A stretch of DNA of 64,000 nucleotides. Source: Azolla caroliniana. Taxonomy: Eukaryota; Plantae; Polypodiophyta. The position numbers and the translations under genes are program-made. The stretch spans positions 24,738,001 to 24,802,000 of the forward strand of contig JBHGNT010000002.1 in NCBI GenBank assembly GCA_043228905.1, written 5' to 3'. Positions 28,095-64,000 of this stretch are shown one piece after another. The notes under the pieces are model-generated. The model ran no database searches. It was not told where the DNA came from and was given only the letters and a program-made list of their open reading frames with translations. Position 1 is the first letter of the stretch; each line of letters begins with the position of its first letter.

Positions 28095-28715
28095 TGATAA
28101 AGAAGGGAGACATATGTAAAAGAGAACCATAACACATTATCTTTCTTGCAAACGATAGCTCATATAAATTCTTACAATGCATAGACAAGGTGAGACGAGT
28201 TAAGTGACGCAAAATATGCGGACTATTACTCGGCCACAACCGAGTCTTAGGATTGACCACAGAAGATGGGAATAGGAAGAAATGCATGTAGTATACACAC
28301 AAACAATAGAGCAAGAGAGAGTACACAGTATGTTTACATGGAAAACCCTAAACGAGAAAAAGCATGGGAGCCCACAAGCTCTGAACTATCAGTATATCTA
28401 AAAGGAATACAACAAGAGAACACAAAGGCAACGACCTCGTCCTCACACTCTTCGCCTGGTGGCGGTTATAACAGAGACTTACTTTGTTTCTGTGCGTGTG
28501 TGTGTGTGTGTGTTACGCTTTGTACAACAGTTACACTCAATATGACAACACAAAATAATGATACAACACAACCACTCTGTTTGCCCTAGGTCATATTTAT
28601 ACTAATATGACTTTCAGGCTATTTACAAATATAGCCACAATGAGCTACCAGAAACATATTTACATATATGTCCCTTCATCCGGTGAGAGGTTCTCACCTG
28701 GCCTGCGTCATCTGG
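28095..28715 (-). repeat. Possible truncated LTR of an unrelated element, cut by Gypsy A
   Basis: It begins TG where the RTE-like frame stops. The minus strand has a TATAAAT (about 28600) and a tagggttttccatgtaaa U5-like motif. No partner LTR is in the window. Confidence 0.3.
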
Positions 28716-29392
28716 TGTCGTGAAGAAAACCGGCCATAGGCGGAATCGGAGAGAAAGCGCGTAAACCGGCCCCTACACGGATGGACGCATGACTGGATAC
28801 TTTGTACACGAACCAGTGGATGTGACTACTAAGCCACACACATTTATTAGAGGGGGATTGTGCGTATCCCAGGGAGGGGCAGGGAATAAAAGGGAAGAGG
28901 ACAAGGGAAAACAGATATCGCGCGCGGGGAGGAAGAAGGAGGTTGCTGCAGAACGGAAGGCAGAGCTCTCTCTCTTCGTCTCTCTTCGTCGCTCTCTACG
29001 GGTGTCGGGAGGTTGCTGCAGAACGGAAGGAGGATCTCTCTCTCTTCGTCTCTCTTCGTCGCTCTCTGCAGGTGTCGGGAGGTCGCTGCCTCTGCTTCGT
29101 GGACAGCCCGTGTGCTTCCAGCAGAGTCGCTCCCCTTCCCCTTTTGTTTCTTTGAGTCGGCGACTGTCGTCGGTGTGCGTGTGTAGGGTCCCCGTGTCGG
29201 GCCCGTCGCCGCTTTGTCAGTTGTAATTGTCGGAGTTTGTAATCTCTGTCATTATAATTAAGTGTTACGTTCTGTTCCTCTCTCTCTCGCTTCTACGTGT
29301 CGGTGAATCTTTCTCTCTCTCTCTGTCACTCCTCGGTCTAAGACCCCCGTGGTCCCGCCCCTTTTTACACGTACGCGCGTAACAACGCGACA
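28716..29392 (+). repeat. Gypsy A 5' LTR with an internal ~69-bp tandem duplication (about 28938-29076)
   Basis: tgtcgtgaagaaaacc...cgcgaca; same LTR type as copy E. Confidence 0.9.
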
Positions 29393-31224
29393 TCTTTGGT
29401 GAACCCGACGTGAAAGGGTGGCAAAGGAGTCGAAAGATGAGGGGATCGGAGCTAGCAGAGGCAATGGCGGTGGCCGTCGACCGGCTGGTGAGCGCTCGTG
29501 AGGGAACGGGTACCCTCGACAGAGCCATAGAATCGATCGTCGGCTCTATAGGCCGTTTCGGAGGGAAAGACGCCACAAGTTATTTGGAGGCTTACTGGGC
29601 TGAAATGATCATGAGGGATATCCCAGTGGACAGGCGGCTGTCCGGATTCCCTCGGGTGGTGACGCCGGGCATCCATGCGGAGGTGCTCGAGGTGCTGGCC
29701 GGATGCCAGACTTGGGAGGAGTTCGAGCTGCAGCTCCTCGAGAAGTACGGGTTTGATGACTCACTCCGGCTGTCGAGGTGGGACTTCATGGCGTGGGTGG
29801 AAAGCCCCGGAAAAGGGAGGAACACATCGGTGCTCCTCCAGGAGTTCGAAAAACGGTTCGCGGGGCTATCGACGCTGGACCGGACGGTGCTCGAAACAAG
29901 TCGGTGCCGGTTGGGAGGAAGGAAGAGACCCAAATCTGGATGGAGTCGGGGTCAGCATCGAATGACGTGGTCAGAGGCCCATCCGGAGGAGCGGCTCAGG
30001 AGGAGCTAACACAGATGGTGCGCGACCTACTGATCGCATAGGCCCAAAGAGACAGTGGTGAACAACCTCGCGACCGGAGGCCGCCGGCTGGGCAGCGGTG
30101 CATGTGGTGTGACGCGATCGGTCACATTCGGAAGGACTACGCGTATTTCGCCGACGCGCTCAGGACCAACGTGGTGTATCTCTGGAATGGGCGGGTGCAC
30201 GCGAGTGAGACCCGGAGAGCCCTGGAACTGAATACGGGGCGCAACGGAATGAAGAGGTTGATGGAAGAGGCCGCGGCACAGCACGTTGAAGCCGTTAACT
30301 ACTCAGTGTCGGCGGGAATTCGGGTCGGGGGTGATGAGACCCAGAAGGTGAAGGACTCCGGATTCTGGTCGCTAGTGCTAGAAGGCCTCTCCGGAGTTCG
30401 GCTGAGGAAGGAAGAGGCGGACCGCTGTCGTGAAGAAAACCGTCCATAGGCGGAATCGGCGCACCAAGGCGTGGGAACCGGTTCTTCACGCGCGCACGCT
30501 CCGAGTTGTACATAGAAGCGAATTAGGAGGATAATCTCGACAACGGGCCCTAACACAAGTGGAGACAAAGACCGCGCGAACAGTCTTTTCGGTCGCGCGC
30601 GCGAGCGAAGGAACTGTACGAGTCGGCGGCCTAACTACGCGGATGCGTGAAGGACGGAGCGGATCCCTGTCCAAAAGGGACAGGGAATAAAGCTGACATG
30701 ACGGCCTGCTCGTCGGCCTATATAAGGAGCAGGAAAGAGCTGTTGCAGGTATCTCACGCAGAGAGGACGAAGTGCTGCCGGACCGTTTCTGGACGCTTCT
30801 CTCTCTGTTTCCTTCCTTCTTGAGCTCCATAGCTTTCTGTGCAGGGTTCCGAGGAGGCTCGCGCTGTTTCGAGGAATGCCCGAGTGCTTCCGGCAGCACC
30901 TCCGACCTACTACCCCCCCTTTGTGCTTCAAAGCGAACAAGCATCGGCATCTGTTCGCCGGCTTGTTCGGTTGTAGCCAACCTGTGCCCCATCGAGGGTT
31001 GTAGTCGTGTTAGCCATTTTTGTTAATATACACACTTAGTCATTAGCATCTGTCTGTGTCGGTGTCTGTTCGCGTTCTCCGTGCTGAAGGGCCGTGTCCC
31101 TGTGTATTCCCGGTCCTGCGTAGCCGGTTCTCTCTCTTTCTCCTCCCTCGCTTGCTCTTTGGTTCGAGACCCCCGCGGTCCCGCCTCGTTTTCCATACGC
31201 ACTTGCGTAATATCTTGACATCTT

Positions 31225-31242
31225 TGGTGAACCCGACGTGAA
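31225..31242 (+). promoter_or_regulatory. Primer binding site complementary to the 3' end of plant tRNA-Trp
   Basis: TGGTGAACCCGACGTGAA is the reverse complement of TTCACGTCGGGTTCACCA, the plant tRNA-Trp 3' end as recalled. The same site follows LTRs A, D, E and F. Confidence 0.8.
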
Positions 31243-31264
31243 AGAGGCGGCAGAAGGGCAGAAG

Positions 31265-33391
31265 ATGAGGGGGTCGGATCTTGCAGAGGCCATGGCTTCG
31301 GCCGTGGACCGGATTGTAAACGCGCGCGAGGGCACCGGTGCCCTCGACAGAGCCATTGAGGCGGTCGTCGGCACGATCGGCCGGTTCGATGGGAAGGATG
31401 CCATGAAGTATTTGGCGTCCTACGGTGCAGAGATGCTGATGCGGGACATTCCGGAAGAAAGGCGTCTTGCCGGATTTCCCCGAGTGGCGATGCCGAGCAT
31501 CCATGCGGAGGTGCTCGAGGTGCGGGCGGAGAGCCGTACCTGGGAGGAGTTCGAAGGTCGGCTCCTAGAGAAATACGGGCTGGACGACGCGCTCCGGCTT
31601 TCGAAGCGAAGGTTCATGGAATGGGTGGAGTCCCCGGGGAAGGGAAGAAACGCGTCGGCACTCCTCCGGGAGTTCGAGGAAAACTTTGCGCGCCTTTCGG
31701 CGCTCGACCGAACCATCCTGGACACGAGCCGGGTCTTGCTGTTTGTCAAGTCGGTCGACGAGCGGGATCGGGAGCAAGTGGGCCTCTTGCTGGAAACCGA
31801 AGACAGGCTCACTACTGACTGGGCGGCTGTCAAGAAAGTCTGTGGCCGTTTTGACAAACGGCGAGAATGGGCGGATAACGGGGCAACCGGGTCGGGCTCG
31901 GTCGCAGCAAGGAAGCTCGAACCAGCGCCATAGGTGCGAAAGGAAGAGACCCGAGAATGGTTGGAAACCGGTTCGGCTTCGACCGGCGTAGTCAGAGGCT
32001 CAACCGGAGGAGCGGCGCTGGAGGAATTGACGAGGGCGATAAAGGACCTCCAAATCGCGCAAGCCCGAAGGGAAGGTGGCGAACCGGCTCGTGACCGACG
32101 GCCGGCAGCAGGAAACAGGTGCATGTGGTGCGATGAAGTCGGCCACATTCGGAAGGACTGCGGCGACTTCGCGGAGGCGCTGAGGAACAGGGTGGTGTAC
32201 CTGTGGGAAGGACGGGTGCATGCCAGCGACACCCGAAGGGCCCTGAGCCGAAACGACGGGCGAGGTGGTATGAAAAGGTTGATGGAAGAGGCGGCGGCCC
32301 GACACGCGGAAATCGTCCACTACTCGGCGTCGGCCGGCATTCGAGTCGGGGGCGGCGAGGCCCGAAGGGAAAGCAAAGCCAGATTCTGGCCGACGATGCT
32401 GGAAGGCCTTGCCGGTGCAAGGCTTAAAAGGGAGGAATCGGACCGTGCGGAGAAACGGGTACGGGAGATGACCGGGTGGAGCGACCCGGTCGAGGAAGAG
32501 ACGGGCTTCGTGGAAGCCGCTTGCCAGAACTACGAGGCTCTGGTAGAAGAGAAGCGGGTGGGGAAACCCGGGACGACCGGGCCCTCACAACGATACGAGA
32601 CCCGGTCCGGGCCACGACGGGACGAAGCCGGCAGGGCCGGTACGCAAGATAAACCCCAGAAGGGCGGGTACCGTCTGGGGACGGAGATAGAAAGGACCAC
32701 GGACTTACGAAAGGTCCTGGAGGAACGGATCCTCGACAGCAAGGTGGAGCTGTCGTTACGAGAGGTGCTGGGAATCGCCAAGAAGGAGTTCCACGACTCC
32801 ATCGTGGACTTGGTGAAACGGAAGAGGCTGTCAACGGAGACAGAACCGGAAAGACCGGTGGAAGTGCGGACGACGCACCTAGATGACATGGCGCTGGGAG
32901 ACGAGTGGGCGGAAAGCCACTATTCGAGACCACACTGGGCCCGAGCGACCACGGAAACCCCGGTGAAGATCGGCGATGTCCAGGAACCGGTGATAGCTTT
33001 GGTGGACCACGGATCGGAGATCAATTTGATGTCCATGGACTTCTATAAGAAGGGCAAGTGGCCGATCAACACCAAGCACGGGTGGAAAATAAGGGCAGCA
33101 ACGCGCGCCACCGAGGAACTGCACGGGGCCTGTCCGAATGTGCGAGGCAAGATCGGCGACGTCGAGATTGACCAGCACTTCTTCGTGCAGGAGACGTCTT
33201 CGCATCCGGTCATACTGGGAGAGCCGTACATCACGGTGGCGCGAATGGAGACCAAGGTGCTGGACAATGGTTCGGCCTACGCGAGGGTCAAAAGCCAAGA
33301 CGGGCGCCATTCGGTCCAGTTTCTGACGGTACGGCCGAACCACGAACGTAACCGCGACTCCCTCGGTTCCGAAAACCGAGAGGATTTTTAG
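31265..33391 (+). pseudogene. Copy B Gag-protease ORF with a single premature TAG (31931-31933)
   Basis: Knuckle CMWCDEVGHIRKDC; aspartic protease ALVDHGSEINLM..VILGEPY; ends ENREDF*. Other copies have CAG or CAA at the TAG position. Confidence 0.9.
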
Positions 33392-33447
33392 AGAGGACTG
33401 CCAAGGCGTGGGGCCACGGCAGTTCGGATGCTGCGGGAAAACCCCAC
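33382..33447 (+). promoter_or_regulatory. Putative -1 ribosomal frameshift signal (G GAT TTT plus pseudoknot)
   Basis: Conserved at 33382, 38669, 42265, 46582, 54587 and 59036. The stem is 33395-33402 / 33418-33425, and loop GTGGGG pairs with CCCCAC at 33442-33447. Confidence 0.8.
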
Positions 33448-36400
33448 ATCTGTACGATAAAACCGTGTACAATAGGTAGGAAATTTTGCTTCTCCGACAG
33501 CGGAGCATGTACGACGGTCGGCATCGCCGGCCGAGAGAAAACAAAGACGGAGGGGAGACTTCGAGCGTGCGGAGCTCTCGGCCCTGACGAAGAAATCAGT
33601 GGCGCCATGGAGGCGGTCTCCTTCGACGACACCTTGGGAATGCTGGGGAAGGTAGTCGAAGAAGACCTTAACGAAGACCGGACGATACCGGTATGTTCCG
33701 AAGAAATGTACGAAGTCATCGCGGACTTTGGTCGGGGGCTCGAGTCGGATCGGACGGCCCGAGTAAGCACCAAGTACAAGACTGTGGACCGGAAGGTAAG
33801 GCCAGTCGCGGTACCGTTACCGGAGGGCAGCGAGTCGCGAATCAAAGGGGTTGCATCGGACCCCAGCCTACGAGATCCGGCCTGTATAGGACACACCTTC
33901 ACCAACGAGACGCTCCGGGAGCTCAAAATCGGTGGGGGCGGGTTCCTACTACCGGCGGAGGAACACCGGTTTCGGAGAATGCTCGGAAGGCACGGGAAAG
34001 CCTTCGCATTCTCACCGGAGGAAATCGGGTGCGTAAACCCGACGATCGTAGAGCCGATGGTGATATTCACGGTACCGCATGTACCGTGGAATCTCAAGCC
34101 AATTCCGGTTCCGAGAGCTCACATCCCGAAGTTGATGGAGCTGTTGAAGCAGAAGGTTGATATGGGCATTCTCGAGCCGTCGAGCGCCCCGTATTCAAAC
34201 CGATGGTTTACCGTACCAAAGAAAAACGGATCATTGCGCTTCATTCAGGACCTGCAACCGGTCAATAAGGTGACCATTCGGAACGCAGGGATTGGACCGA
34301 CCATAGACGAGTTCGCGGAGGCCTTCGCCGGAAGGTCGATTTACTCGGTCGGTGATCTATACTCAGGGTACAACCAGTTCCAGCTAGCCGTGGAGAGCAG
34401 AGACATTACGACGATGCGAACTCCCCTCGGCCTAGTGCGGATGTGTACGCTGCCGCAAGGAGGGACTAACTCGGTGGCCCACATGGTGAATGCGATGAAC
34501 AAGGTTCTGAGGGACTGCATCCCGGACATCACCATGCCGTTTCTAGACGACATCCCGATCAAGGGATGCCCGGTAGCGGAAAAGGACGAGACGATCGGGC
34601 CGGACGGATGCCGGCGATTCGTGGCGATGCACATCGACGACTGCGAGAAGGTGCTGCAAAGGCTAGAGGCTGCGAGGCTCACCTTCTCGGGGGAGAAATC
34701 AGCCTTCGGGCAGTCGGAAATCATGGTGGTCGGACATTTATGTGGACCATATGGCCGGAAACCGTCTCCGGCAAAGGTAGAAGCCATCTCCGCGATGAAG
34801 CCTGATTGCAACTCGGTCACGGAGGTACGAAGATTCTTGGGAGCATGCGCCTTCTACCACATATGGATCCCGCATTACGCGCACGTCGCGGAGCCGCTGT
34901 ACGGATTATTGAAGAAAGGGCGAAGATTCGAATGGCTAGACAAGCACACGGAGTCGGTCCGGAAGCTGAAGGAGGCTCTTTCGGCAGCACCGGCGCTCCG
35001 AAAGGCCGTCTATAGGAAGGGCACCCCAGTGTACATAACGGTTGACACGAGTCCGACCGGAATCGGGTGGGTCGTCAACCAAGAAGACGAGGACGGCAAT
35101 CGGTTTCCGATCCGATTCGGCGCGAAGGTCCTCAGTGAGCGGCAGCGAGGATACGCCCAGGTTAAACGCGAACTCTGGGGTATTGTTTCGGCGGTCAAGG
35201 CCGACAAGGACTATCTGATCGGGACAGAGGTAATCATAGAGACGGATTGCATGCCGATTCTCGGCATGGTTTCCGGATGCGCGACGCCGGACCTGGCAAT
35301 GCTCAGGTGGATAGCGTACATCAAGTCTGTGGACCCGGAAATACGACACATTTCCGGGAAAGACAACGCCATGGCCGACATGCTTTCGAGGGCGAGGTTC
35401 GATGACGAGGGCGGCATGGTTTCGGAGGACGAAGAGGTCGGCGTGGACTTCTTCGAGGCAGCATACGTGACAACCGACGGGACGAGCACTCCGGCGCTTA
35501 ACGACTTCGACGCGAGCAAGTACGATGGGGAGTGGCTGCAGATCGGCGGGTTCTTGAGGACAATGGCGCCGGATGCGTCATGGACGAAAGACGAGGCCAA
35601 CCGGATCCGGAAGAAAGCGTACCGGTTCTTTCTCCGGGATGGCTATCTATGGAAGCACCCGAAGAAGAGGGACGGCGCTCCGCTCCGGGTGGTGGCGATG
35701 AAGGAAGAACAGGAGGAGCTGCTGACGGCCTACCACGACAGCCCTTGGGCCGGATACCGTGGAACTTGGGTCACGTTCGAGAAGATAAAGGAGAAGTACT
35801 GGTGGCCGGGACTGTACCGGGACGTGCACCGATTAGTGACAACTTGCGAGAGCTGTCAGATGCACTCCGTGGTCCGACACCGGGACGAGCTTCACCCTAC
35901 GTACCCTCCGACCATCCACTTCAAATGGATGGTAGATCTGGTGACGATGCCAATGGGGGTAGGACAGATGCGGTACCTGGTCCTAGCGCGGGAGGATCTG
36001 ACGAACCAGGCGGAAGGCCGGGCCCTTCCGAACAAAACGACCGCGGCCGTATGTCGGTTCCTAATCGAGGACGTGATATGCCGGTACGGGTGCGTCGGGA
36101 AGATCGTGGCTGACCAAGGGGAGTTGGACGCCGAAGAAGCCGCGGAGCTGTTCGACCGGCTGGGAATCAAGCTCTTGCTCACCACTGCGTATAATCCGGA
36201 GGCGAATGGAAAGGTGGAGCGCGGACACGGACCGATCGTCAAGGCGCTGGTTCGAGCATGCGGAGGCCAAGTCGGTAACTGGCCGCGGCTGCTACCTTAT
36301 GCTTTGTGGGCAGACCGGACCACGCACAGTTCGGTAACCGGGTACATGCCGACGGAGCTCATGTTCGGCCAGAAGCCGATCATGCCGATAGAACGGACGA

Positions 36401-36870
36401 TCTCCTCGTGGGCAACGGTCGACTGGAGGGACGAGATGAGCCGAGAGGAGTTGTTGGCCGCACGTATACGACAGCTCGAGCGGAGACCGGAGGACGTGGC
36501 ACTGGCTGCGGAGAAGCTCCGGGTGGCGAGGACAAAGAACAAAGCCAGGTTCGACCGAACGCACCGGCTCCGACCGAAGAAAATCGACAAAGGTGACTGG
36601 GTGCTCGTCTACGACAGCAGCCTCGACAACCAGCACCGAGCTACACGGAAGTTCGCACGAAGGTGGTTCGGGCCTTACGTGGTGCAGAGCGCCAATGACA
36701 ACGGGACATATCACCTGGCGGAACTAGACGGCACGAGAATGGCGATACCGGTTGCAGGGAAGCGGATCAAAGCGTTCAAGAAGCGACACGACGACGAGCC
36801 AGACCCGGCTCTCCTAGTCAGCAGTGACGAACGATCCGAAAACGAGGAAGAACCGACGGGCGAGGAATGA
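33382..36870 (+). CDS. Copy B Pol (RT-RNase H-integrase), -1 frame relative to Gag-PR, intact
   Basis: The frame is open from the GGATTTT site. RT YSNRWFTVPKKNG, DLYSGY, LPQG, PFLDD; RH TVDTS..KRELWG..ETD; integrase H..CESC, VDLV, NGKVERGH, WFGPY. No chromodomain. Confidence 0.93.
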   Translation, partial: GFLERTAKAWGHGSSDAAGKPHICTIKPCTIGRKFCFSDSGACTTVGIAGREKTKTEGRLRACGALGPDEEISGAMEAVSFDDTLGMLGKVVEEDLNEDRTIPVCSEEMYEVIADFGRGLESDRTARVSTKYKTVDRKVRPVAVPLPEGSESRIKGVASDPSLRDPACIGHTFTNETLRELKIGGGGFLLPAEEHRFRRMLGRHGKAFAFSPEEIGCVNPTIVEPMVIFTVPHVPWNLKPIPVPRAHIPKLMELLKQKVDMGILEPSSAPYSNRWFTVPKKNGSLRFIQDLQPVNKVTIRNAGIGPTIDEFAEAFAGRSIYSVGDLYSGYNQFQLAVESRDITTMRTPLGLVRMCTLPQGGTNSVAHMVNAMNKVLRDCIPDITMPFLDDIPIKGCPVAEKDETIGPDGCRRFVAMHIDDCEKVLQRLEAARLTFSGEKSAFGQSEIMVVGHLCGPYGRKPSPAKVEAISAMKPDCNSVTEVRRFLGACAFYHIWIPHYAHVAEPLYGLLKKGRRFEWLDKHTESVRKLKEALSAAPALRKAVYRKGTPVYITVDTSPTGIGWVVNQEDEDGNRFPIRFGAKVLSERQRGYAQVKRELWGIVSAVKADKDYLIGTEVIIETDCMPILGMVSGCATPDLAMLRWIAYIKSVDPEIRHISGKDNAMADMLSRARFDDEGGMVSEDEEVGVDFFEAAYVTTDGTSTPALNDFDASKYDGEWLQIGGFLRTMAPDASWTKDEANRIRKKAYRFFLRDGYLWKHPKKRDGAPLRVVAMKEEQEELLTAYHDSPWAGYRGTWVTFEKIKEKYWWPGLYRDVHRLVTTCESCQMHSVVRHRDELHPTYPPTIHFKWMVDLVTMPMGVGQMRYLVLAREDLTNQAEGRALPNKTTAAVCRFLIEDVICRYGCVGKIVADQGELDAEEAAELFDRLGIKLLLTTAYNPEANGKVERGHGPIVKALVRACGGQVGNWPRLLPYALWADRTTHSSVTGYMPTELMFGQKPIMPIERTISSWATVDWRDEMSREELLAARIRQLERRPEDVALAAEKLRVARTKNKARFDRTHRLRPKKIDKGDWVLVYDSSLDNQHRATRKFARRWFGPYVVQSANDNGTYHLAELDGTRMAIPVAGKRIKAFKKRHDDEPDPALLVSSDERSENEEEPTGEE

Positions 36871-39800
36871 AGACGGGCCGGTTTTCTCCGTCCCAACTCT
36901 CTTGGCGCATACCGGAGGATGCGCGGTTAGGTGGGGGCGGATGTCGTGAAGAAAACCGTCCATAGGCGGAATCGGCGCACCAAGGCGTGGGAACCGGTTC
37001 TTCACGCGCGCAGGCTCCGAGTTGTACATAGAAGCGAATTAGGAGGATAATCTCGACAACGGGCCCTAACACAAGTGGAGACAAAGACCGCGCGAACAGT
37101 CTTTTCGGTCGCGCGCGCGAGCGAAGGAACTGTACGAGTCGGCGGCCTAACTACGCGGATGCGTGAAGGACGGAGCGGATCCCTGTCCAAAAGGGACAGG
37201 GAATAAAGCTGACATGACGGCCTGCTCGTCGGCCTATATAAGGAGCAGGAAAGAGCTGTTGCAGGTATCTCACGCAGAGAGGACGAAGTGCTGCTGGACC
37301 GTTTCTGGATGCTTCTCTCTCTGTTTCCTTCCTTCTTGAGCTCCATAGCTTTCTGTGCAGGGTTCCGAGGAGGCTCGCGCTGTTTCGAGGAACGCCCGAG
37401 TGCTTCTGGCAGCACCTCCGACCTGCTACCCCCCCTTTGTGCTTCAAAGCGAACAAGCATCGGCATCTGTTCGCCGGCTTGTTCGGTTGTAGCCAACCTG
37501 TGCCCCATCGAGGGTTGTAGTCGTGTTAGCCATTTTTGTTAATATACACACTTAGTCATTAGCATCTGTCTGTGTCGGTGTCTGTTCGCGTTCTCCGTGC
37601 TGAAGGGCCGTGTCCCTGTGTATTCCCGGTCCTGCGTAGCCGGTTCTCTCTCTTTCTCCTCCCTCGCTTGCTCTTTGGTTCGAGACCCCCGCGGTCCCGC
37701 CTCGTTTTCCATACGCACTTGCGTAATATCTCGACACCGCGCGGAACAACGGGTCCAGGAGGTCACTGGTTGGGACGATCCGGTGGAAGAGAAAACGGGC
37801 TTCGTAGAAGCCACTTGCCAAAACTACGAGGTTCTGGTGGAGGAGAAACGGGCAGGAAAGGCCGGAGGGGTTGGGGCCCTGAGGTATGAGACCCGGTTCG
37901 GGCCGAAACCGCCGGTGCCGGCAACCAATGCGTGCTGGATGGGAAGAAGCAGGCGGGGTTTCGGTTGAGCACCGAAATTGAGAGAGCAACGGACCTACGG
38001 AAGGTCCTTGAAGAGCGAATCCTCGACAGTAAAATGGAGCTGTCGTTGCGGGAGGTGCTGGGAATCGCCAAGAGGGAGTTCCATGACTCTATCGTAGACT
38101 TGGTGAAGAGGAAGAGGCTCTCGACGGAGCCGGAACCGGAGAAGCCGGTGGAAGTGTGAACCACGCACCTGGAAGACGGAGCCCTGGAAGATGAGCTGGC
38201 GGGAAGCCACTACACGAAGCCGCATTGGGCCAGGGCGACTATGGAAACCCCTGTACGGATTGGCAACGTTCTAGAACCAATGGCGGCGTTGGTAGACCAT
38301 GGATCCGAAATCAACCTGATGTCCATGGATTTCTTCAAGGGTAAATGGTCGATCAACACCAAGCATGGCTGGAAGATACGGGCAGCGACGCGCGCCATGG
38401 AAGAACTACATGGGGCCTGTCCGAACGTATGGGTGAAAATCGGCGATGTCGAGATTGACTAGCACTTCTTCGTGCAGGAGACGTCCTCGCATCCGGTTAT
38501 ACTAGGAGAGCCATATATCACGGCGGCACGGATGGAGACCAAGGTGCTGGACAACGGTTCAACCTATGCAAGAGTCAAAAACTAGGACGGGTGCCACTTG
38601 GTCCAGTTCCTAACGGTGAGACCAAACCACGAGCGTAACCGCGAGGCCCTCGGCAATGAAACCCGAGGGGATTTTTAGAGAGGGCTATCAAGGCGTGGGG
38701 CTGTGATAGTCCGGACTCCCAGGAACAACCCCACAAATGTATAGTACGAAAGAAGTCTTGTACCATGGGTAGGAAGTTTTGGTTTTCCGACAACGGAGGT
38801 TGTACTATAACCGGCGTCAGCGGCCAGGAGAGGAAGCGAGCGGAGGAGCGGCTCAAGGGATGCAGAGTCCTCTTCCCCGACGAAGACATCAGCGGCGTCG
38901 TAGAGGCGGTCTCTTTTGACGACACCTTGGGCGAACTACGAAAGGTGATCGATGAAGACCTTAGAGAAGACCGGACCGTTCCGGTAGGATCGATGGGAAA
39001 GGATCGGGTCAGATCGGATGGCCCGCGTGGGTACGAAATACAAGACTGTGGACCGGAAGGTGAGGCCAGTCGCGGCACCCTTGCCGGAGGGCAGCGACGA
39101 GTGGATAAAAGGGGTCTCGTCGGACCCAAGTTTACGGAATCCGGCTGGCATAAGGCACAGGTTCACCGACATAACGCTACGGGAGCTCAAGGTCGGTGGG
39201 GGCGGCTTCCTACTACCGGTGGAGGAGGACCGGTTTCGGAGAATGATCGGAAGGCACGGGAAGGCTTTCGCATTCTCACTGGAGGAGATCGGGTGCGTAG
39301 ACCCGACAATTGTCGAACCGATGGTGATCTTCACGGTACCGCATGTACCGTGGAATCTCAAGCTGATTCCGGTGCCAAGAGCTCACATCCCGAAGTTGAG
39401 GGAGCTCCTAAAGCAAAAGGTGGAGATGGGCATCCTTGAACCGTCGAGTGCCCCGTATTCGAATCGGTGGTTTACGGTGCCGAAGAAGAACGGCATGCTG
39501 CGCTTCATCAAGGTGACCATCCGTAATGCAGGGATTGGACCGACCATAGACGAGTTCGCGGAGGCCTTCGCTGGAAGGTCGATCTATTCTGTCGGTGATC
39601 TGTACTCGGGGTACGATCAGTTCCAACTAGCCGTGGAGAGCAGAGACATTACGACGATGCGGACTCCTCTCGGCCTACTGCGGATGTGTACCCTACCACA
39701 AGGAGAGATGAACTCAGTGGCTCACATGGTGAACGCGATGAACAAAGTGCTCAGGGATTGTATCCCGGACATCACCATGCCGTTCTTAGACGACATCCCG

Positions 39801-53614: not shown

Positions 53615-53662
<48 letters not shown>
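53615..53662. repeat. (TC)n microsatellite expanded in the E LTR
   Basis: Read directly from the sequence; shorter in the A LTR. Confidence 0.9.
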
Positions 53663-53667
<5 letters not shown>

Positions 53668-54586
53668 GGTCCAAGACCCTCGTGGTCCCACCCCTTTCTA
53701 CACAAACGCGTGTAACAACGCGACATCTTTGGTGAACCCGACGTGAAAGGGTGGCAAAGGAGTCCAAAGATGAGGGGATCGGAGCTAGCAGAGGCAATGG
53801 CGGTGGTCGTCGACCGGCTGGTGAGCGCTCGTGAGGGAACGGGTACCCTTGACAGAGCCATTGAATCGATTGTCGGCTCTATAGGCCATTTCGGAGGGAA
53901 AGATGCCACAAGTTATTTGGAGGCTTACCGGGCCGAAATGAACATGAGGGATATCCCGGTGGACAGGCGGTTGTCCGGATTCCCTCGGGTGGTGACGTCG
54001 GGCATCCATGCGGAGGTGCTCGAGGTGTTGGCCGGATGCCAAACTTGGGAGGAGTTCGAGCTGCAGCTCCTCGAGAAGTACGGGTTTGACGACTCACTCC
54101 GGCTGTCGAGGCGGGACTTCATGGCGTGGGTGGAAAGCCCCGGAAAAGGGAGGAACACGTCGGTGCTCCTCCAGGAGTTCGAAAAACGGTTCGCGCGGCT
54201 GTCGACGCTGGACTGGACGGTGCTCGAAACAAGTTGAGTACTGTTGTTTGTCAAGTTCGTGGATGCGCTCAACAGGGAAAAGGTGGGGCCCCTATTGGAA
54301 ACGGACGAAGGGCTCACGACGGACTGGGCCGTGGTAAAACGGGTCTACAGCCGTTTCGACAAACGGTGCGATTGGAGCGACGGAAGCACGTCGGGATCGG
54401 GGCCGGTCCCGGGGAGGAGGCTCGAGGAGCCTATATCACAGCAGCACGGATGGAGACCAAGGTGCTGGACAACGGTTCAGCCTATGCAAGAGTCAAAAGC
54501 CAGGACGGGCGTCACTCAGTCCAGTTCCTAACGGTGCGACCAAACCACGAGCGTAACCGCGAGGCCCTCGGCAGCGAAACCCGAGG

Positions 54587-56113
54587 GGATTTTTAGATAG
54601 GGCTATCAAGGCGTGGGGCCGCGATAGTCTGGACTCCCCGGAACAACCCCACAAATGTACAGTACGGAAGAAGAATTGTACCATGGGTAGGAAGTTTTGG
54701 TTTTCCGACAACGGAGGTTGTATTATAACCGGCGTCAGCGACCGGGAGAGGAAAGGGAACACTTTGGCGCTTAACGAATTTGACGAAAGCAGGTACGACA
54801 GGGAGTGGCTCCAATTCGGGAGGTTCCTACGGACGATGACGTCGGACGTAGCATGGGCGAGAGAGGAGGCGAGCCAGATACGGAGGAAGGTGTACCGATT
54901 CTTCCTGCGGGACGGGTGCTTATGGAAGCACCCAAAGAAGAGAAGCGACATCCCACTCCGAGTAGTGGCAAAGAAAGAAGAACAGGGGAAACTACTGGCG
55001 GCATTCCACGAGAGCCCATGGGCTGGACACCGCGGAATGTGGGCCACGTTCGAGAAGCTGAAGGAGAAGTACTGGTGGCCAGGGCTATACCATGACGTGC
55101 ATCGGTTCGTAACGACTTGCGAAAGCTGTCAGGTGCACCTGACCTACCCGCCTACTGTCCATTTCAAGTGGATGGTGGACTTGGTGACGATGCCGATGGG
55201 GGTAGGACAGATGCGATACCTGGTACTTGCACAAGAAGACTTAACGAACCAGGTGGAAGGCCGTGCACTGCAAAGCAAGACAACCGCGGCGGTATGCCGG
55301 TTCCTGATCGAAGAAGTAGTGTGTCGGTACGGATGCGTTGGGAGGATCGTGGCAGACCGGGGAGAGCTGGATGCGCGGGAGGCCGAGGAGTTGTTTGACC
55401 GGCTAGGCGTCAAACTCTCCCTCACTACGGCGTACAATCCGGAGGCGAACGGAAAGGTGGAACGTGGGCACGGACCGATTGTAAAGGCGTTGGTGCGTGC
55501 ATGCGGTGGGCAGGTCGGGAATTGGTCGCGAATCCTTCCTTACGCGCTATGGGCGAACCGGACTACGCACAGTTCGGTGACAGGGTTTATGCCGGCGGAG
55601 CTAATGTACGGACAAAATCCGATCATGACGGTGGAACGGACGGTTTCTTCGTGGGCGGCGGTAGATTGGAAGGATGAAATGAGCCGGGGGGAGTTGCTAA
55701 CGGCGCGGATTCAGCAACTCGAACCGAGGCCGGAGGACGTGATACAGGCGAAGGAAAAGCTGCGAGCAGCGAGGGAGCAGAACAAGACCCGGTTCAACCG
55801 AACGCACCGGTTGCGACCAAAGAAGATCGAGGAAGGCGATTGGGTGTTGGTATACGACAACAGCCTTGACAATCAGCATGAGGCGGTGCGAAAGTTTGCT
55901 AGGAGATGGTTCTGGCCCTACATGCTGACGAGCGTGAACGACAACGACACGTACCACCTCGCGGAAGTCGACGGGACACAGTTAGCGGTGCCGGTGGCCG
56001 GGAAGCGGATCAAAGCTTTCAAAAAGCGGTTCGAAGTCGAGTCGGAGCCTGCGAGTGGGAGCGACAATGACGATCAATTCGGGTCCAGCGGAGAATCAGA
56101 GAGCAACGAGTGA
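54587..56113 (+). CDS. Copy E residual Pol: N-terminal stub fused in frame to integrase
   Basis: The frame is open from the slippery site; ..VSDRERKG|NTLALNEFDES.. joins directly to the pre-integrase region. Confidence 0.75.
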   Translation, partial: GFLDRAIKAWGRDSLDSPEQPHKCTVRKKNCTMGRKFWFSDNGGCIITGVSDRERKGNTLALNEFDESRYDREWLQFGRFLRTMTSDVAWAREEASQIRRKVYRFFLRDGCLWKHPKKRSDIPLRVVAKKEEQGKLLAAFHESPWAGHRGMWATFEKLKEKYWWPGLYHDVHRFVTTCESCQVHLTYPPTVHFKWMVDLVTMPMGVGQMRYLVLAQEDLTNQVEGRALQSKTTAAVCRFLIEEVVCRYGCVGRIVADRGELDAREAEELFDRLGVKLSLTTAYNPEANGKVERGHGPIVKALVRACGGQVGNWSRILPYALWANRTTHSSVTGFMPAELMYGQNPIMTVERTVSSWAAVDWKDEMSRGELLTARIQQLEPRPEDVIQAKEKLRAAREQNKTRFNRTHRLRPKKIEEGDWVLVYDNSLDNQHEAVRKFARRWFWPYMLTSVNDNDTYHLAEVDGTQLAVPVAGKRIKAFKKRFEVESEPASGSDNDDQFGSSGESESNE

Positions 56114-56227
56114 GGACGGGTTTCTTTGATATCTGCCCATCTCTGGCGCATACCGATGGATGCGCGGTTTGGTGGGGGTGGATGTCGTAAAGAAAACCGG
56201 CCATAGGCGGAATCGGAGAGAAAGCGC

Positions 56228-59200
56228 TGTCGTGAAGAAAACCATTCACAAGCGGAATCAGTGCACCGGAGTGTAGGAACCAGCTCTTCATGCACATACA
56301 CCTTATGTTGTACATAAGAGAGAATTAGGTACATAGAAGATCCTAGGTAGGTAGATTCGGTAGGTAGGAAGTTAATGGGAAACGACTCCTTTCTTGCCTA
56401 TAAAAGGAGGGAGACGGGGAGGAGAAAAGGGGGATCACGGTTAGAGAGGACGAAGTATTGTCGGGTTGTCGGCCGAAGGCTTCTCTCTCTTCCATACTCC
56501 GTAGCTTCTTCCTGTGCAGGTTTTCGGGAGGCTCGCGCTGCTCTAAGGAATGCCCGAGTGCTTCCGGTAGCACCTCCAACCTACTCCTTTCTTTCTGAGC
56601 GTTTACGAACAAGCATCGGCATCTGTTCGCCGGCCTGCTCGGTTGTAACCGACTTCGTGCTTCTTGTTGTTTGTCCTGGTTAATATATATATACATACAT
56701 TCGTGTCTCTCTGCGTCGGTGTCCCACTCGCGTCTTTGTGTCGAAGGGCCGTGTCCCTGTGAATCTACGTCCACACGTAGTCGGTCCCTTCCCTTCTCCT
56801 TTGTCTCTTGCTCTTCGGTACAAGACCCCCGAGGCCCCGCCTCATTCCACACATCTGCGAGGAATACCTCGACATCTTGGTGAACACGACGTGAACGAGG
56901 CGGCAGAAGAGCAGAAGATGAAGGGGTCGGATCTTGCGGAGGCCATGGCTTCGGCCGTGGATCGGATATTGAGCGCACGCGAGGGCACCGGCGCCCTCGA
57001 TAGAGCCATTGAGGTGGTCGTCGGTACGATCGGCCGGTTCAGCGGAAAGGATGCCACGAAGTATTTGGCGTCCTACGGGGCAGAAATGTTGATACAGGAC
57101 ATTTCGGAAGAGAGGCGCCTTGTCGGGTTCCCTCGAGTGGCGATGCTGAGCATCCATGCAGAGGTGCTCGAGGTACGGGCGGAGAACCGTACCTGGGGGG
57201 AGTCTGAAGGCCAACTCCTAGAGAAATACGGGCTGGACGAAGCGCTCCGGCTTTCGAAACGGGACTTCATGGGATGGGTGGAGTCCCCCGGCAAGGGAAG
57301 AAACGCGTCGGCACTCCTCCGGGAGTTTGAGGAACGCTTTGCGCGCCTTTCGGCGCTTGACCGAACCGTTCTGGATACGAGCCGGGTCCTACTGTTCGTC
57401 AAGTCGGTGGACGAGCAGGACCGGGATCAAGTCGGCCCCCTTGCTGGAAACCGAAGACGGGCTGACGATCGACTGGGCTGCGGTTAAGAGAGTCTGTGGC
57501 CGTTTCGACAAACGGCGAGAATGGGCTGATAACGGGGCGGCCAGTGCGGGCTCTGTCATAGCAAGGAGGCTTGAACCGGCACCGCAAGGGCGAAGGGAAG
57601 AGACCCGGGAGTGGCTCGAAACCGGTTCGGCTTCGACCGGCATGGTCAATGGCTCGTCCGGAGGAGCAGCATTGGAGGAGTTGACGCGGGCGATAAAGGA
57701 TCTCCAGATCGCCCAGGCTCGAAGGGAAGGCGGCGAACCGGCTCGTGACCGACGGCCGACAGCAGGGAACAGGTGCATGTGGTGCGACGAGGTCAGCCAC
57801 ATTCGGAAGGACTGCGGCGATTTCGCAGAGGCATTGAGGAACCGGGTGGTGTACCTATGGGAAGGTCGGGTGCTCGCCGGGGATACCAGAACGGCCCTAA
57901 ACCGGAACGACGGGCGAGCAGGTATGAAGAGACTGATGGAAGAGGCAGCGGCCCGACACGTGGAGGCCATCCACTACTCGGCGTCGGCCGGCATTCGGGT
58001 CGGGGGCAGCGAGGCCCGAAAGGAGGGCAAAGACGGATTCTGGTCGGCAATGCTGGAAGGTCTTGCCGGCGCACGGCCAAGAAAAGACGAAACGGACCGT
58101 GCTGAGAGACGGGTCCGGGAAATAAATGGGTGGAGCGATCCGGTCAAGGAGAAGACGGGCTTCGTAGAAGCCGCTTGCCAGAACTACGAGGCTCTGGTAG
58201 AAGAAAAACGAGTGGGGAAAGCCGGAGCGGCCGGGCCCTCGCAACGGTACGAGACCCGATTCGGGCAACGATGGAACGATGCCGGTGGGCCCGGCCCGCA
58301 AGACAACCCCAGGAAGGGCGGGTACCGACTGGGGACAGAAATAGAAAGGGCTACGGACCTACGAAAGGTCCTAGAAGAACGGATCCTCGACAGCAAAGTG
58401 GAGCTGTCATTGCGGGAGGTGCTAGGGATCGCCAAGAAGGAGTTCCACGAATCCATCGTGGACCTGGTGAAACGGAAGAGACTGTCGACGGAGACGGAAC
58501 CGGAAAAACCGGTGGAGGTGCGGACGACGCACATCGACGACTCGGTGCTGGAAGATGAGTTGGCAGAGAGCCACTATTCGAGGCCACACTGGGCCCGAGC
58601 GACCACAGAGACCCCGGTAAAGAGCGGAGATGTTCGGGAACCAGTGGTGGCGTTGGTGGACCACGGTTCGGAAATAAACCTAATGTCCATGGACTTCTAT
58701 GAGAAGGGGAAGTGGCCGATCAACACCAAGCACGGGTGGAAGATACGGGTGGTGACGCGCGCCACCGAGGAACTGCATGGGGCCTGCCCGAACGTGCGAG
58801 TCAAGATCGGCGACATCGAGATTAACCAGCACTTCTTCGTACAGGAAACGTCTTCGCACCCGGTCATCTTAGGGGAACCATACATCACGGCGGTGAGAAT
58901 GGAGACCAAGGTGCTGGACAACGGTTCGGCCTACACGAGGGTCAAAAGCCAGGACGGGCGCCATTCGGTGCAATTTTTGACGGTGCGGCCGAACCAGGAG
59001 AGAAACCGCGAATCCCTCAGTGGCGAGAACCGGGAGGATTTTTAGAGAGGACTGCCAAGGCGTGGGGCCGAGACAGTCCGGACACTCAGGAAAGACCCCA
59101 CGATTGTACGATAGGCAGGAGATTTTGCTTCTCCGACAACGGAGGGTGTATGATGGTCGGCATCGTAGGCCGAGAAAAGACAAGGGCGGAAGAGCGACTT

Positions 59201-62200
59201 CGAGCATGCGGAGTTCTCGGCACGGACGAGGAAATCAGCGGAGCCGTGGAGGCGGTCTCCTTCGACGACACCTTAGGGATGCTGAGGAAGGTTGCCGGAG
59301 AAGACCTTAACGAAGACCGGACGATACCGGTATGTTCCGAAGAGATGTATGAAGTCATCGCGAACTTCAGTCGGGGGCTCGGGTCGGATCGGACGACCCG
59401 AGTTAGCACAAAGTACAAGACTGTGGACCGGAAGGTAAGGCCAGTCGCGGCACCCTTACCGGAGGGCAGCGAGTCCCGGATCAGAGGGGTTGCGTCGGAC
59501 CCTAGTTTGCGAGATCCGGTCTGCATAGTACACACCTTCACCGACGGAACGCTCCGGGAGCTCAAAATCGGTGGGGGCGGGTTCCTACTGCCGGCGGAGG
59601 AAGACCGGTTTCGGAGAATGCTCGGAAGACACGGGAAAGCCTTCGCATTCTCACCGGAAGAGATCGGGTGCGTAGACCCGACAATCGTGGAGCCGATGGT
59701 GCTATTCACGATACCGCATGTGCCGTGGAATCTCAATCCGATTCCAGTACCGAGAGCTCAAATCCCGAAGTTGATGGAGCTGTTGAGGCAGAAAGTCGAT
59801 ATGGGCATTCTCGAACCGTCGAGTGCCACATACTCGAACCGATGGTTTACCGTACCAAAGAAAAACGGAACATTGCGCTTCATTCAAGACCTGCAGCCGG
59901 TCAACAGAGTGACCATTCGGAACGCAAGAATCGGACCGACCATAGACGAGTTCGCGGAGGCCTTCGCCGGAAGGTCGATTTACTTGGTCGGTGATCTGTA
60001 CTCGGGGTACAACCAGTTCCAGCTAGCCGTGGAGAGCAGAGACATTACGACGATGCGAACTCCCCTCGGCCTAGTGCGAATGTGTACCCTGCCACAGGGA
60101 GGGACCAATTCGGTGGCCCACATGGTGAATGCAATGAACAAGGTACTGAGAGATTGCATCCCAGACATCACCATGCCATTTCTAGACGACATCCCGATCA
60201 AGGGGTGCCCGGTGGAAGAGAAGGACGAGACCCTCGGGCCGGACGGATGCCGGCGGTTCGTGGCAACACACATCGACGACTGCGAGAAGGTGCTACAAAG
60301 GCTAGAGGTTGCGAGGCTCACCTTCTCCGGGGAGAAATCGGCCTTCGGGCAATCAGAAATCCTGGTAGTCGGACACCTATGTGGACCATATGGCCGGAAG
60401 CCGTCTCCGGCAAAGGTAGAAGCCATCTCCGCGATGAAGACCGATTGTAGCTCGGTTACGGAAGTTCGGAGGTTCCTGGGGGCATGCGCATTCTACCACA
60501 TATGGATCCCGCATTACGCCCACGTTGCGGAGCCGCTATACGGGTTGCTGAAGAAAGGGCGAAAATTCGAGTGGCGAGACGAGCACACGGAGTCGGTCCG
60601 GAAGCTAAAGGAAGCTCTTGCGGCAGCACCGGCGCTCCGGAAGGCTGTCTACGAGAAGGGTATCCCGGTATACATAACGGTGGATACGAGTCCGACCGGG
60701 ATCGGATGGGTCGTCAACCAAGAAGACGAGGACGGCATTTGGTTCCCGATCTGATTCGGCACAAAGGTCCTCAGTGAGCGACAGCGAGGGTACGCCCAGG
60801 TTAAACGCGAACTCTGGGGTATCGTTTCGGCAGTAAAGGCCGACAAAGACTACCTGATCGGGACAGAAGTGATTATCGAGACGAATTGCCTGCCAATTCT
60901 CGGCATGGTCTCCGGATGCGCGACACCGGACCTGGCAATGCTCAGGTGGATAGCATACATCAAGCCCCTGGATCCGGAAATACGGCACATTTCCAGAAAG
61001 GACAACGCCATGGCCGACATGCTTTCGAGGGCGAGGTTTGATGACGAGGGCGACATGCTTTCGGAGGACGAAGAAGTCGGCGTGGACTTCTTCGAGGCAG
61101 CGTACGTGACGACCGATGGGACGAGCACTCCGGCGCTTAACGGCTTCGACGAGAGCAAGTACGACGGCGAGTGGCTCCAGATCGGTGGTTTCTTGAGGAC
61201 AATGACGTCGGATGCGTCGTGGACGAGGGACGAGACCAACCGGATCCGGAAGAAAGCATACCGATTCTTTCTCCGGGACGGATACTTATGGAAGCACCCG
61301 AAGAAGAGGAACGGCATCTCGCTCCGGGTGGTGGCAATGAAGGAAGAACAGGAGGAGCTGCTGACGGCCTACCACGACAGCCCTTGGGCTGGACACCGTG
61401 GGACGTGGGCCACGTTCGAGAAGATAAAGGGGAAGTACTGGTGGCCGGGACTGTACCGGGACGTGCATCTGTTCGTGACAACTTGCGAGAGCTGTCAGAT
61501 GCACTCCATAGTCCGGCATCGGGACGAGCTTCACCCTACGTACCCTTCGACCATCCACTTCAAATGGATGGTAGATCTGGTGACGATGCCGATTGGAGTA
61601 GGAGAGATGCGGTATCTGGTCCTGGCTCGGGAAGATCTGACGAACCAGGTGGAAGGCCGAGCCCTTCAGAACAAAATGACGGCCGTATGTCAGTTCCTGA
61701 TCGAGGACGTGATCTACCGGTACGGGTGCGTTGGGAAGATCATGGCTGATCGCGGGGAGTTGGACGCCGAAGAGGCCGAGGAGCTGTTCGACCGGATAGG
61801 AGTCAAGCTCTCGCTTACCACTGCGTACAATCCGGAGGCGCATGGGAAGGTGGAGCACGGACATGGACCGATCGTCAAGGCGTTAGTTCGGGCATGCAGA
61901 GGTCAAGTCGGGAACTGGCCGCGGTTGTTGCCTTACGCGTTGTGGGCGGACCGAACTACGCACAGTTTGGTAACCGGATTCATGCCGGCAGAGCTCATGT
62001 TTGGGCAGAAGCCGATCATGCCGATGGAACGTACGATCTCCTCATGGGCAACCGTGGACTGGAAAGACGAGATGAGCCGGGAGGAACTGTTGGCGGCGCG
62101 CATACGACAGCTCGAGCGAAGACCGTAGGATGTGGAGCAGGCTGCGGGAAAGCTTCGGGTGGCAAGGACGAGGAACAAAGCCCGGTTCGACCGAACGCAC

Positions 62201-63220
62201 CGGCTCCGACCAAAGAAGATCGAGGAAGGCGACTGGGTGTTAGTCTACGACAGCAGCCTCGACAACCAACACCGAGCAACACGGAAGTTCGCAAGAAGGT
62301 GGTTCGGGCCTTACGTGGTACAAAGCGCCAACGACAACGGGACGTACCATCTGGCGGAACTCGACGACACGAGAATGGCGATACCGGTAGCTGGGAAGCG
62401 GATCAAAGCGTTCAAGAAGCGTCACGACGACGAGCCAGATCCGGTTAACCTAAACCGCGACGACGAACGATCCGAAACCGAGGACGAACCGACGGGCGGG
62501 GAATGAAGACTAGACCGGTTTTCTCCGTCCCAACTCAATTGGCGCATGCCGGTGGATGCGCGGTTAGGTGGGGGCGGATGTCGTGAAGAAAACCGTTCAC
62601 AAGCGGAATCGGTGCACCGGAGCGTAGGAACCGGCTCTTCATGCACATACACCTTATGTTGTACATAAGAGAGAATTAGGTACATAGAAAATCCTAGGTA
62701 GGTAGATTCGGTAGGTAGGAAGTTAATGGGAAACGGCTCCTTTCTTGCCTATAAAAGGAGGGAGACGGGGAGGAGAAAAGGGGGATCACGGTTAGAGAGG
62801 ACGAAGTGTTGTCGGGTTGTCGGCCGAAGGCTTCTCTCACTTCCATACTCCGTAGCTTCTTCCTGTGTAGGTTTTCGGGAGGCTCGCGCTGCTCTGAGGA
62901 ATGCCCGAGTGCTTCTGGCAGCACCTCCAACCTACTCCTTTCTTTCTGAGCGTTTACGAACAGGCATCGGCATCTGTTCGCCGGCCTGCTCGGTTGTAAC
63001 CGACTTCGTGCTTCTTGTTGTTTGTCCTGGTTAATATATATATACATACATTCGTGTCTCTCTGCGTCGGTGTCCCACTCGCGTCTTTGTGTCGAAGGGC
63101 CGTGTCCCTGTGAATCTACGCTCGCACGTAGTGGGTCTCTTTTCCTTTCTCTCTTGCTCTTCGGTACAGGACCCCCGAGGTCCCGCCTCATTCCACGCAT
63201 CCGCGAGGAATACCTCGACA
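56228..63220 (+). mobile_element. Gypsy copy F, full length but with non-matching flanks (probable recombinant)
   Basis: LTRs at 56228-56874 and 62579-63220. The left flank is GCGC (inside the E LTR) and the right flank is ACGG (inside a Copia). The U5 regions of the two LTRs differ. Confidence 0.93.
56918..62506 (+). pseudogene. Copy F gag-PR / pol with a frameshift (about 57438) and stops (60752, 62126)
   Basis: Same motifs as B and D; slippery site at 59036. Confidence 0.9.
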
Positions 63221-63222
63221 AC

Positions 63223-64000
63223 GGGGTCATGAAGTTCAGCAAAGGGAGCCTGATTGTGGCTCGGGCCCGGAAGGTAAACACGCTGTACCTGATGAATGCC
63301 TGGTTATGTCCGGAAGAAGTGAACGTGGCATCCAACACTGCCGGTGAGCTATGGCACAAGAGGCTATGTCATATGAGCGAGAAGGGGATGAAGAGGCTTG
63401 CAGACGACAACCTCATTCCAGTGAAGAACGTGCACTTAGAGAAGTGCACTGATTGTCTGGCCGGTAAGCAGAACCGGACCTCCTTCCGACCAAGGCCACC
63501 GATGAGACGTAATGCACCACTGGAGTTGGTGCATTCGGATGTGTGTCAAGTAGACACGAAGTCACATGCCGGAGCGCAGTACTTCGTGACGTTCATAGAT
63601 GACCACAACCGGAAGCTGTGGGCCACACCATTGAAGACGAAGGATCAGGTGTTATCCGTCTTCAAAGAGCTCCACGCGAGAGTCGAAAGAGAAACCGGCC
63701 GGAAGCTGAAGGCGGTTCGAGCAGACAACGGAGGAGAATACCGGGGGCAGTTCGAGGAGTACTGCCGCTCGAAGGGAATCCAGCTCGAATTTACCGTGCC
63801 GAAGACGCCGGAACTAAACGGACTGGCCGAGAGGATGAACCAGACCATAATGGAGAGGGTCCGGAGTATGCTAGTGCATGCAAAACTACCCAAGAAGTTT
63901 TGGGCTGAGGCACTGTCGACGACGACATATGTGATAAACAGATCACCCTCAGTACCCTTGGACGGAGACACGCCACAGAGAGTATGGACCGGTAAGGAAG
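63223..64000 (+). mobile_element. Ty1/Copia GAG-pre-integrase and integrase core, open to the window end
   Basis: Manual translation gives LWHKRLCHMSEKG..CTDCLAGKQ, LELVHSDVC, YFVTFIDD, RADNGGEY, NGLAERMN and FWAEA with no stop. Confidence 0.92.

What the first reader, a model, noticed from the sequence alone, without database searches (positions are those of the whole stretch)
28712..63224. Gypsy family with 4-bp target sites centred on CpG (N-CG-N): a possible CpG-targeting integrase
Seen: B has TSD CCGC/CCGC and D has ACGC/ACGC; the host reading frames rejoin cleanly with a 4-bp duplication. Unpaired flanks are C-right ACGT, E-left ACGG, F-left GCGC and F-right ACGG. A-left is CTGG, which could be CCGG after CpG deamination. 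Six of seven target sites thus have CG in the middle. Known: most plant LTR elements make 5-bp TSDs with weak sequence preference, as the Copia and chromovirus here do. Inference: in a CpG-poor host, a CG (possibly methyl-CG) preference would steer insertions into CpG-rich transposons, including the family itself. That would build nests away from genes without a chromodomain. Caveat: the sample is small and the targets are CpG-rich.
Basis: partly seen in the sequence, partly recalled or inferred. Interest (0 to 1): 0.85.

Follow-up and report, generated by a model that had tools for sequence, protein, structure and literature searches.

The report
Phygy-like retrotransposon inserting at CG sites
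A plant jumping gene here nearly always lands with CG in the middle of its four-base landing site, but this habit is already published for the Phygy group of moss retrotransposons, to which it likely belongs, and whether DNA methylation guides it remains untested.

Summary
Copies B and D have 4-bp duplications CCGC and ACGC, and 6 of 7 target sites in the window carry a central CG. Independent data remove the small-sample caveat. In metagenome contigs, 15 of 15 readable junctions of the family are N-CG-N, four of them in DNA of 30-36% GC. In 3 of 4 laid sequencing runs the majority flank before the LTR ends in ACGT.

The preference is not new. Neumann et al. 2019 (PMC6317226) list Phygy as 186 elements, 4-bp TSD 100%, motif NCGN, primer tRNA-Trp, no extra domain. 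This family matches on TSD, motif and domain content. It is slightly shorter (6,961-7,311 bp), and no labelled Phygy sequence was available for a tree.

Most likely the integrase itself reads CG at the centre of a 4-bp stagger; flexibility alone does not explain it (21 of 22 CG among YR steps). Methyl-CG dependence and steering into transposons are untested; flank CG density gave no support for steering. Verdict: likely new member of a known kind, low interest.

The parts
28712..28715 (+). A left flank CTGG, the only site without central CG; unpaired
28716..29392 (+). Copy A 5' LTR, followed by the primer-binding site
29393..40517 (+). Copy A internal region, interrupted by copy B and truncated in the RNase H region
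30422..30425 (+). B left TSD CCGC
30426..37736 (+). Copy B, full length 7,311 bp, LTRs 795 bp and 99.1% identical
31225..31242 (+). B primer-binding site, 18 nt complementary to a CCA-ended plant small RNA listed as miR894; tRNA-Trp identity recalled
31262..33391 (+). B ORF1, gag plus protease-like region with DUF4100; premature stop at 31931-31933
33382..33388 (+). GGATTTT at the ORF1/ORF2 overlap, found at 6 places in the nest; predicted -1 frameshift site
33352..36870 (+). B pol: RT, RNase H, integrase with weak SH3-like C-terminus; no chromodomain, no second RNase H
36930..36941 (+). B polypurine tract before the 3' LTR (36942-37736)
37737..37740 (+). B right TSD CCGC
40525..52967 (+). Copy C, 5' end missing, interrupted by D; integrase cut short and joined to the LTR 52314-52967, likely by a deletion at a GGCG microhomology
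43775..43778 (+). D left TSD ACGC
43779..50739 (+). Copy D, full length 6,961 bp, LTRs 97.9% identical
50740..50743 (+). D right TSD ACGC
52968..53088 (+). 121-bp Copia RT fragment; begins with C-right ACGT and ends with E-left ACGG
53089..56227 (+). Copy E 5' LTR (53089-53725), internally deleted body, and 45 bp of an A-type 3' LTR (56183-56227) ending in F-left GCGC
56228..63220 (+). Copy F, 6,993 bp, LTRs 96.3% identical, flanks unmatched (likely recombinant)
63221..63224 (+). F right flank ACGG, start of a Copia pre-integrase/integrase region running to the window end

Best explanation
This is a nest of six copies of a chromodomain-less Ty3/gypsy retrotransposon, likely of the Phygy lineage, that makes 4-bp target duplications centred on CG, likely because its integrase reads that dinucleotide itself. 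Shown: 4-bp duplication, central CG, avoidance of T at position 1 and A at position 4, a conserved primer site, no chromodomain. Inferred: the intasome cuts with a 4-bp stagger and must bend the target sharply at its centre, which favours a pyrimidine-purine step as in 4-bp retroviral integrases; added base contacts then narrow the choice from any such step to CG. Methylation of the CG is predicted not to be required. The nest itself is inferred to come from repeated insertion into CG-rich element DNA that tolerates it, followed by deletions and LTR recombination.
For: B and D paired TSDs, only 4 bp gives a gap-free join. 21 of 22 junctions have central CG and the other has TG: 6 of 7 in the window, 15 of 15 in metagenome contigs. 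Majority loose-end flank ends in ACGT in runs X1 (27 contigs), X4 (33) and X10 (12), with low overall agreement of 0.40-0.51, i.e. many different flanks. CG is only 3.5-40% of YR steps in the window backgrounds; P at most 6e-8. T1/A4 seen in 2 of 42 positions against 28-39% background, the same depletion reported for 4-bp-TSD retroviruses, which also favour central YR (PMC4422553 section 6). Phygy: 4 bp 100%, NCGN, tRNA-Trp 81%, no extra domain. Nearest solved integrases by sequence are Ty3 and PFV. No methyl-binding or chromo family on Pol at E up to 1.
Against: No labelled Phygy sequence could be fetched, so membership rests on features, not a tree. Lengths 6,961-7,311 bp fall below the published Phygy range 7,656-9,968. 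Nothing here separates methylated from unmethylated CG; the family's own DNA shows methyl-C-type decay (LTR differences at 5.6% of CG, 5.1% of CHG, 1.7% of CHH sites), so many targets were probably methylated. No integrase residue was tied to CG reading. A-left is CTGG. One dropped locus (L097, no LTR alignment) has ACCG.
Confidence: 0.62

Rival explanations
1. The integrase (or a partner) prefers methylated CG, so insertions are steered to silenced DNA without a chromodomain.
For: Near-absolute CG rather than any YR step. Host gene region is CG-depleted (o/e 0.31) and family DNA shows methyl-C-type decay. 6 of 7 window sites and at least 5 of 16 outside flanks lie in retrotransposon DNA. A paper titled on CpG methylation affecting retroviral integration in vitro exists (Kitamura 1992, seen only as a reference line).
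Against: No methyl-binding domain found. Four flanks are CG-poor, AT-rich DNA (L065, L074, L091, L096: GC 30-36%, CG 0.5-1.5 per 100). Flank CG density is not above the window background. Drosophila errantiviruses reach sequence-specific palindromic targets, including CGCG, in an animal with little CG methylation (recalled).
Confidence: 0.2
2. The family is a separate non-chromovirus lineage that shares or converged on the NCGN habit, rather than Phygy proper.
For: Shorter than published Phygy. Phygy was defined as specific to P. patens, and no hit named P. patens appeared in the three protein searches.
Against: TSD length, NCGN motif, lack of extra domains and probably the primer all match the Phygy row and no other row of the table. 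Relatives at 64-68% RT-RH identity are in the liverwort Riccia sorocarpa, and Phygy is reported in the liverwort Apopellia.
Confidence: 0.12
3. The CG centre is a by-product of CG-rich targets, small sample or selection after insertion.
For: The nest has 9 CG per 100 bp; only two window sites are paired TSDs.
Against: 15 of 15 outside junctions are N-CG-N at mean local CG frequency 0.035 (P about 3e-24 local, 1e-15 at flat 0.10); ACGT majority in three runs from three studies.
Confidence: 0.02

Closest known systems
Phygy, non-chromovirus Ty3/gypsy clade of Physcomitrium patens (Neumann et al. 2019, PMC6317226)
   Same: 4-bp TSD, NCGN target motif, no chromodomain, no extra RNase H, no extra ORF, coding region fills the interior; primer site likely tRNA-Trp.
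   Different: Shorter (6,961-7,311 bp against 7,656-9,968); host not identified; ORF layout here is gag-protease then -1 frame RT-RH-INT, where the table gives 'ND' for Phygy.
TatI (OTA superclade, Selaginella)
   Same: 4-bp TSD and tRNA-Trp primer.
   Different: TatI carries an extra archaeal-type RNase H in 100% of elements; none found here. No NCGN motif listed for it.
Selgy (Selaginella)
   Same: Short non-chromovirus, 4-bp TSD, no extra domain.
   Different: tRNA-Ala primer, 4.4-6.7 kb, no target motif listed.
Retroviral integrases with 4-bp TSD: PFV, MoMLV, PERV, XMRV (Serrao et al. 2015, PMC4422553)
   Same: Central YR step favoured; T at first and A at last TSD position disfavoured.
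   Different: Their YR enrichment is about 63% above random; here the centre is almost always CG.
Drosophila errantiviruses of the gypsy, ZAM and Idefix groups (review PMC5408687)
   Same: Ty3/gypsy integrases with sequence-specific palindromic 4-bp targets (TATA, CGCG, ATAT).
   Different: Their CGCG site has GC, not CG, at the centre; animal lineage.

Membership tests
Phygy | Placement of RT, RH and INT domains in the Phygy clade of the REXdb phylogeny (the formal definition) | not testable with these tools
   No labelled Phygy sequence was returned. The tree only shows kinship with unnamed and Riccia elements; its single outgroup is too distant to root it.
Phygy | 4-bp TSD | tested here: met
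   B and D
Phygy | NCGN target motif | tested here: met
   21 of 22 junctions; ACGT majority in 3 of 4 runs
Phygy | Primer-binding site for tRNA-Trp | tested here: inconclusive
   The site is conserved in A, B, D, E, F and in A, B, E is the exact 18-nt complement of a CCA-ended plant small RNA listed as miR894. That this is the 3' end of tRNA-Trp is recalled; searches did not confirm it.
Phygy | No chromodomain, no extra RNase H, no extra ORF; coding region fills the interior | tested here: met
   Pfam at E up to 1; ORF1 and pol span 31262-36870 of the interior 31221-36941
Phygy | Length 7,656-9,968 bp (descriptive only; the paper calls size relatively insignificant for classification) | tested here: not met
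   B 7,311, D 6,961, F 6,993; paper passages
TatI | Extra archaeal-type RNase H domain | tested here: not met
   No RNase_H or RVT_3 hit on either Pol
Chromoviruses (Galadriel, Tcn1 and others) | C-terminal chromodomain | tested here: not met
   C-terminal 156 aa give only a weak SH3_Tf2-1 match
Selgy | tRNA-Ala primer site and REXdb placement | tested here: inconclusive
   Primer identity as Trp is recalled, not shown; placement not testable; length exceeds the Selgy range

The most novel reading that the evidence does not exclude
Phygy-type integrases read methylated CG directly at the centre of the target and so find silenced DNA without a chromodomain or host tether: an LTR integrase that acts as its own methylation sensor, across a lineage spread well beyond one moss.
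Probability: 0.17. Interest if true: 0.7.

Novelty: new member of a known kind. Interest (0 to 1): 0.2.

Why it matters
The target preference itself is published, so the finding mostly confirms a known exception among plant LTR elements in another family. What it adds is modest: a refined motif (CG centre, T first and A last avoided, ACGT commonest), a likely gag-protease / -1 frameshift / pol layout where the reference table has none, and evidence that the lineage is wide and abundant. The open point is mechanism. My searches for 'NCGN' with 'retrotransposon', for 'Phygy' and for methylated-CpG targeting showed no test of why CG is chosen. If methylation matters, this would be a new route to heterochromatin targeting and a sequence-selective integrase of practical interest.

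Tried and rejected
No whole genome is held, so the genome-wide TSD count could not be run. Related-locus scans found nothing in viral contigs and no confirmed relative among 9 pattern matches in prokaryote genomes. Host identification from the TPR exon failed: 0 of 131 candidates scored; the host stays unidentified. The atlas gave only generic Gypsy clusters, first hit commonest Streptophyta. Cluster look-up of 10 relatives gave no organism names. The primer tRNA could not be named: no tRNA in the window; 1 of 120 viral loci with the 14-mer held any tRNA, a tRNA-Met; the one paper with miR894, tRNA and Trp was irrelevant. First read-laying on a 1.2-kb stretch did not list the LTR-start loose ends. 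No RNA holder listed. Of 119 metagenome loci, 17 matched the window by blastn; L090 was dropped for lack of an LTR alignment, and L028 (ACGC), L097 (ACCG) and L062 (GGCC) were not counted for the same reason. The idea that E-left and F-right ACGG are one TSD was rejected (different Copia regions). The CGGA before the LTR at 52314 was not counted as a target site because it matches the polypurine-tract end. Earlier-finding look-ups by words and by sequence returned nothing.
Full report
Observation. The window holds a nest of six related Ty3/gypsy copies between 28716 and 63220. Nine LTR starts match TGTC[AG]TGAAGAAAA, and a tenth variant start lies at 56183. B (30426-37736) sits in the gag region of A between CCGC and CCGC. 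D (43779-50739) sits in the RT region of C between ACGC and ACGC. Of duplication lengths 0 to 7, only 4 restored a gap-free match to an uninterrupted copy at both sites. The Copia element at 16347-20404 and the other Gypsy at 21300-26954 have 5-bp duplications.

Structure of the nest. A is the outer element; the 45-bp LTR piece at 56183 is 97.8% identical to its 5' LTR. C lacks its 5' end, and its integrase is cut and joined to the LTR, likely at a GGCG microhomology. A 121-bp Copia RT fragment lies between C and E. F has LTRs 96.3% identical but unmatched flanks, one in an A-type LTR and one in Copia. Recombination and deletion are inferred; local misassembly cannot be excluded without reads spanning the joints.

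Independent test. No genome was held. Seventeen matched the window by blastn; 16 aligned to the LTRs. Four of these follow a polypurine tract. The other 12 have host flanks, and 12 of 12 are N-CG-N. Three right flanks were readable and 3 of 3 are N-CG-N. L061 is a solo LTR with TCGT and GCGT, so its two junctions may be one site. The flanks do not match each other, and their mean CG frequency is 0.035. Dropped rows: L090, L028 (ACGC), L097 (ACCG), L062 (GGCC), none with an LTR alignment. Laying contigs of four runs on the LTR start gave loose-end majorities ending in ACGT for X1 (27 contigs), X4 (33) and X10 (12); for X11 no such row was among those shown, 112 rows being hidden. A majority line gives no per-site count.

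Motif. Over 22 junctions the centre is CG 21 times and TG once. CG makes up 3.5% to 40% of pyrimidine-purine steps in three window backgrounds, so generic flexibility does not explain it (P at most 6e-8). Among the 21 CG sites, T first or A last occurs in 2 of 42 positions against 28-39% background, and A first or T last in 23 of 42.

Anatomy. The primer site is conserved in five copies and is the exact complement of a CCA-ended plant small RNA listed as miR894 (PMC5846777, passages); that this is tRNA-Trp is recalled. ORF1 carries DUF4100 and a protease-like motif DHGS, shared by 14 of 19 relatives checked, 4 having DTGS. Pol follows in the -1 frame past GGATTTT, seen at six places in the nest; frameshifting is inferred. 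Pol has RT, RNase H and integrase, with no chromodomain, second RNase H or methyl-binding family at E up to 1. The nearest solved integrases are Ty3 and PFV. The best protein relatives are unnamed (up to 81%); the only named organism among the 120 listed hits is the liverwort Riccia sorocarpa (62% at full coverage). A tree of 82 RT-RH sequences, taken from 107 of 120 hits that covered the region plus three window sequences, groups B and D with unnamed relatives inside a tight lineage that includes Riccia elements. The host is likely a non-seed plant but was not identified.

What is known. Neumann et al. [quoted passage not shown] Their table lists 186 Phygy elements, 4 bp 100%, NCGN, tRNA-Trp 81%, 7,656-9,968 bp, no extra domain. 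Jedlicka et al. 2019 (PMC6911290; passages and section 8) found 4-bp TSDs with GC-rich centres, 4 bp commonest in Phygy, and Phygy nested in Tcn1 in P. patens. Phygy is reported enriched at centromeres of the liverwort Apopellia (PMC12885004, passages). Serrao et al. 2015 (PMC4422553; abstract and section 6) show central YR preference and T-first/A-last depletion for 4-bp retroviral integrases. PMC5408687 (passages) gives TATA, CGCG and ATAT targets for Drosophila errantiviruses. PMC7466625, PMC13469084, PMC9033089 and PMC12877858 (passages) added nothing on target choice.

Mechanism. The best reading is intrinsic selection by the integrase. A 4-bp stagger needs a sharp central bend, which favours a YR step, and the shared T-first/A-last depletion fits that geometry. 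Extra base contacts are inferred to narrow YR to CG; no residue was identified. The methyl-CG rival stays open: family DNA shows methyl-C-type decay (18 of 320 CG, 10 of 197 CHG, 10 of 594 CHH positions differ between LTR pairs), so targets inside elements were probably methylated, but four flanks lie in CG-poor DNA of 30-36% GC.

Steering into transposons. At least 5 of 16 outside flanks match elements of the window: two the family itself and three the other Gypsy. Flank CG density (0.035) equals the window outside the nest (0.033) and is below the CG-weighted expectation (0.055). This gives no support for strong steering, but the comparison is crude.

Verdict. Real, well supported and already described as a property of Phygy. 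It works like Phygy; formal membership is probable but untested, and length is below the published range. Likely a new member of a known kind, interest 0.2. The methylation question is the only part worth pursuing.

Noticed in passing
window 33382-33388 (also 38669, 42265, 46582, 54587, 59036): Conserved GGATTTT just before the ORF1 stop, with pol in the -1 frame: predicted frameshift after the protease, a layout the Phygy row of the reference table leaves undetermined.
   Followed up: partly
window 31934-33391 and 44453-46588: Protease-like motif reads DHGS instead of the usual D[ST]G (usual form recalled); 14 of 19 relatives checked share it, 4 have DTGS.
   Followed up: partly
window 31225-31242: The primer site is the exact complement of the small RNA annotated as miR894, which is likely a tRNA 3' fragment and could target these elements.
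   Followed up: partly
window 137-932 and 4269-4981: Inverted duplicate of a TPR-protein gene, about 72% identical, the two copies facing each other.
   Followed up: no
window 8378-14163: Near-complete L1-type LINE with zinc knuckle ORF1, endonuclease and RT, broken by stops.
   Followed up: no
L004, L024, L025, L032, L041, L044, L049, L064, L079, L080, L105, L118: A different repeat family in metagenome contigs begins TGTCAGCGCGTTTGC just before the same 16-base motif; its left flanks are varied and not CG-centred.
   Followed up: partly
L019 42-745 (minus strand): One LTR preceded by a polypurine tract and followed by a primer site: a tandem array of two elements sharing an LTR.
   Followed up: no
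window 40490-40525: Junction of A and C carries a short tandem repeat of TTCCGGCATGGT, a likely repair scar.
   Followed up: no
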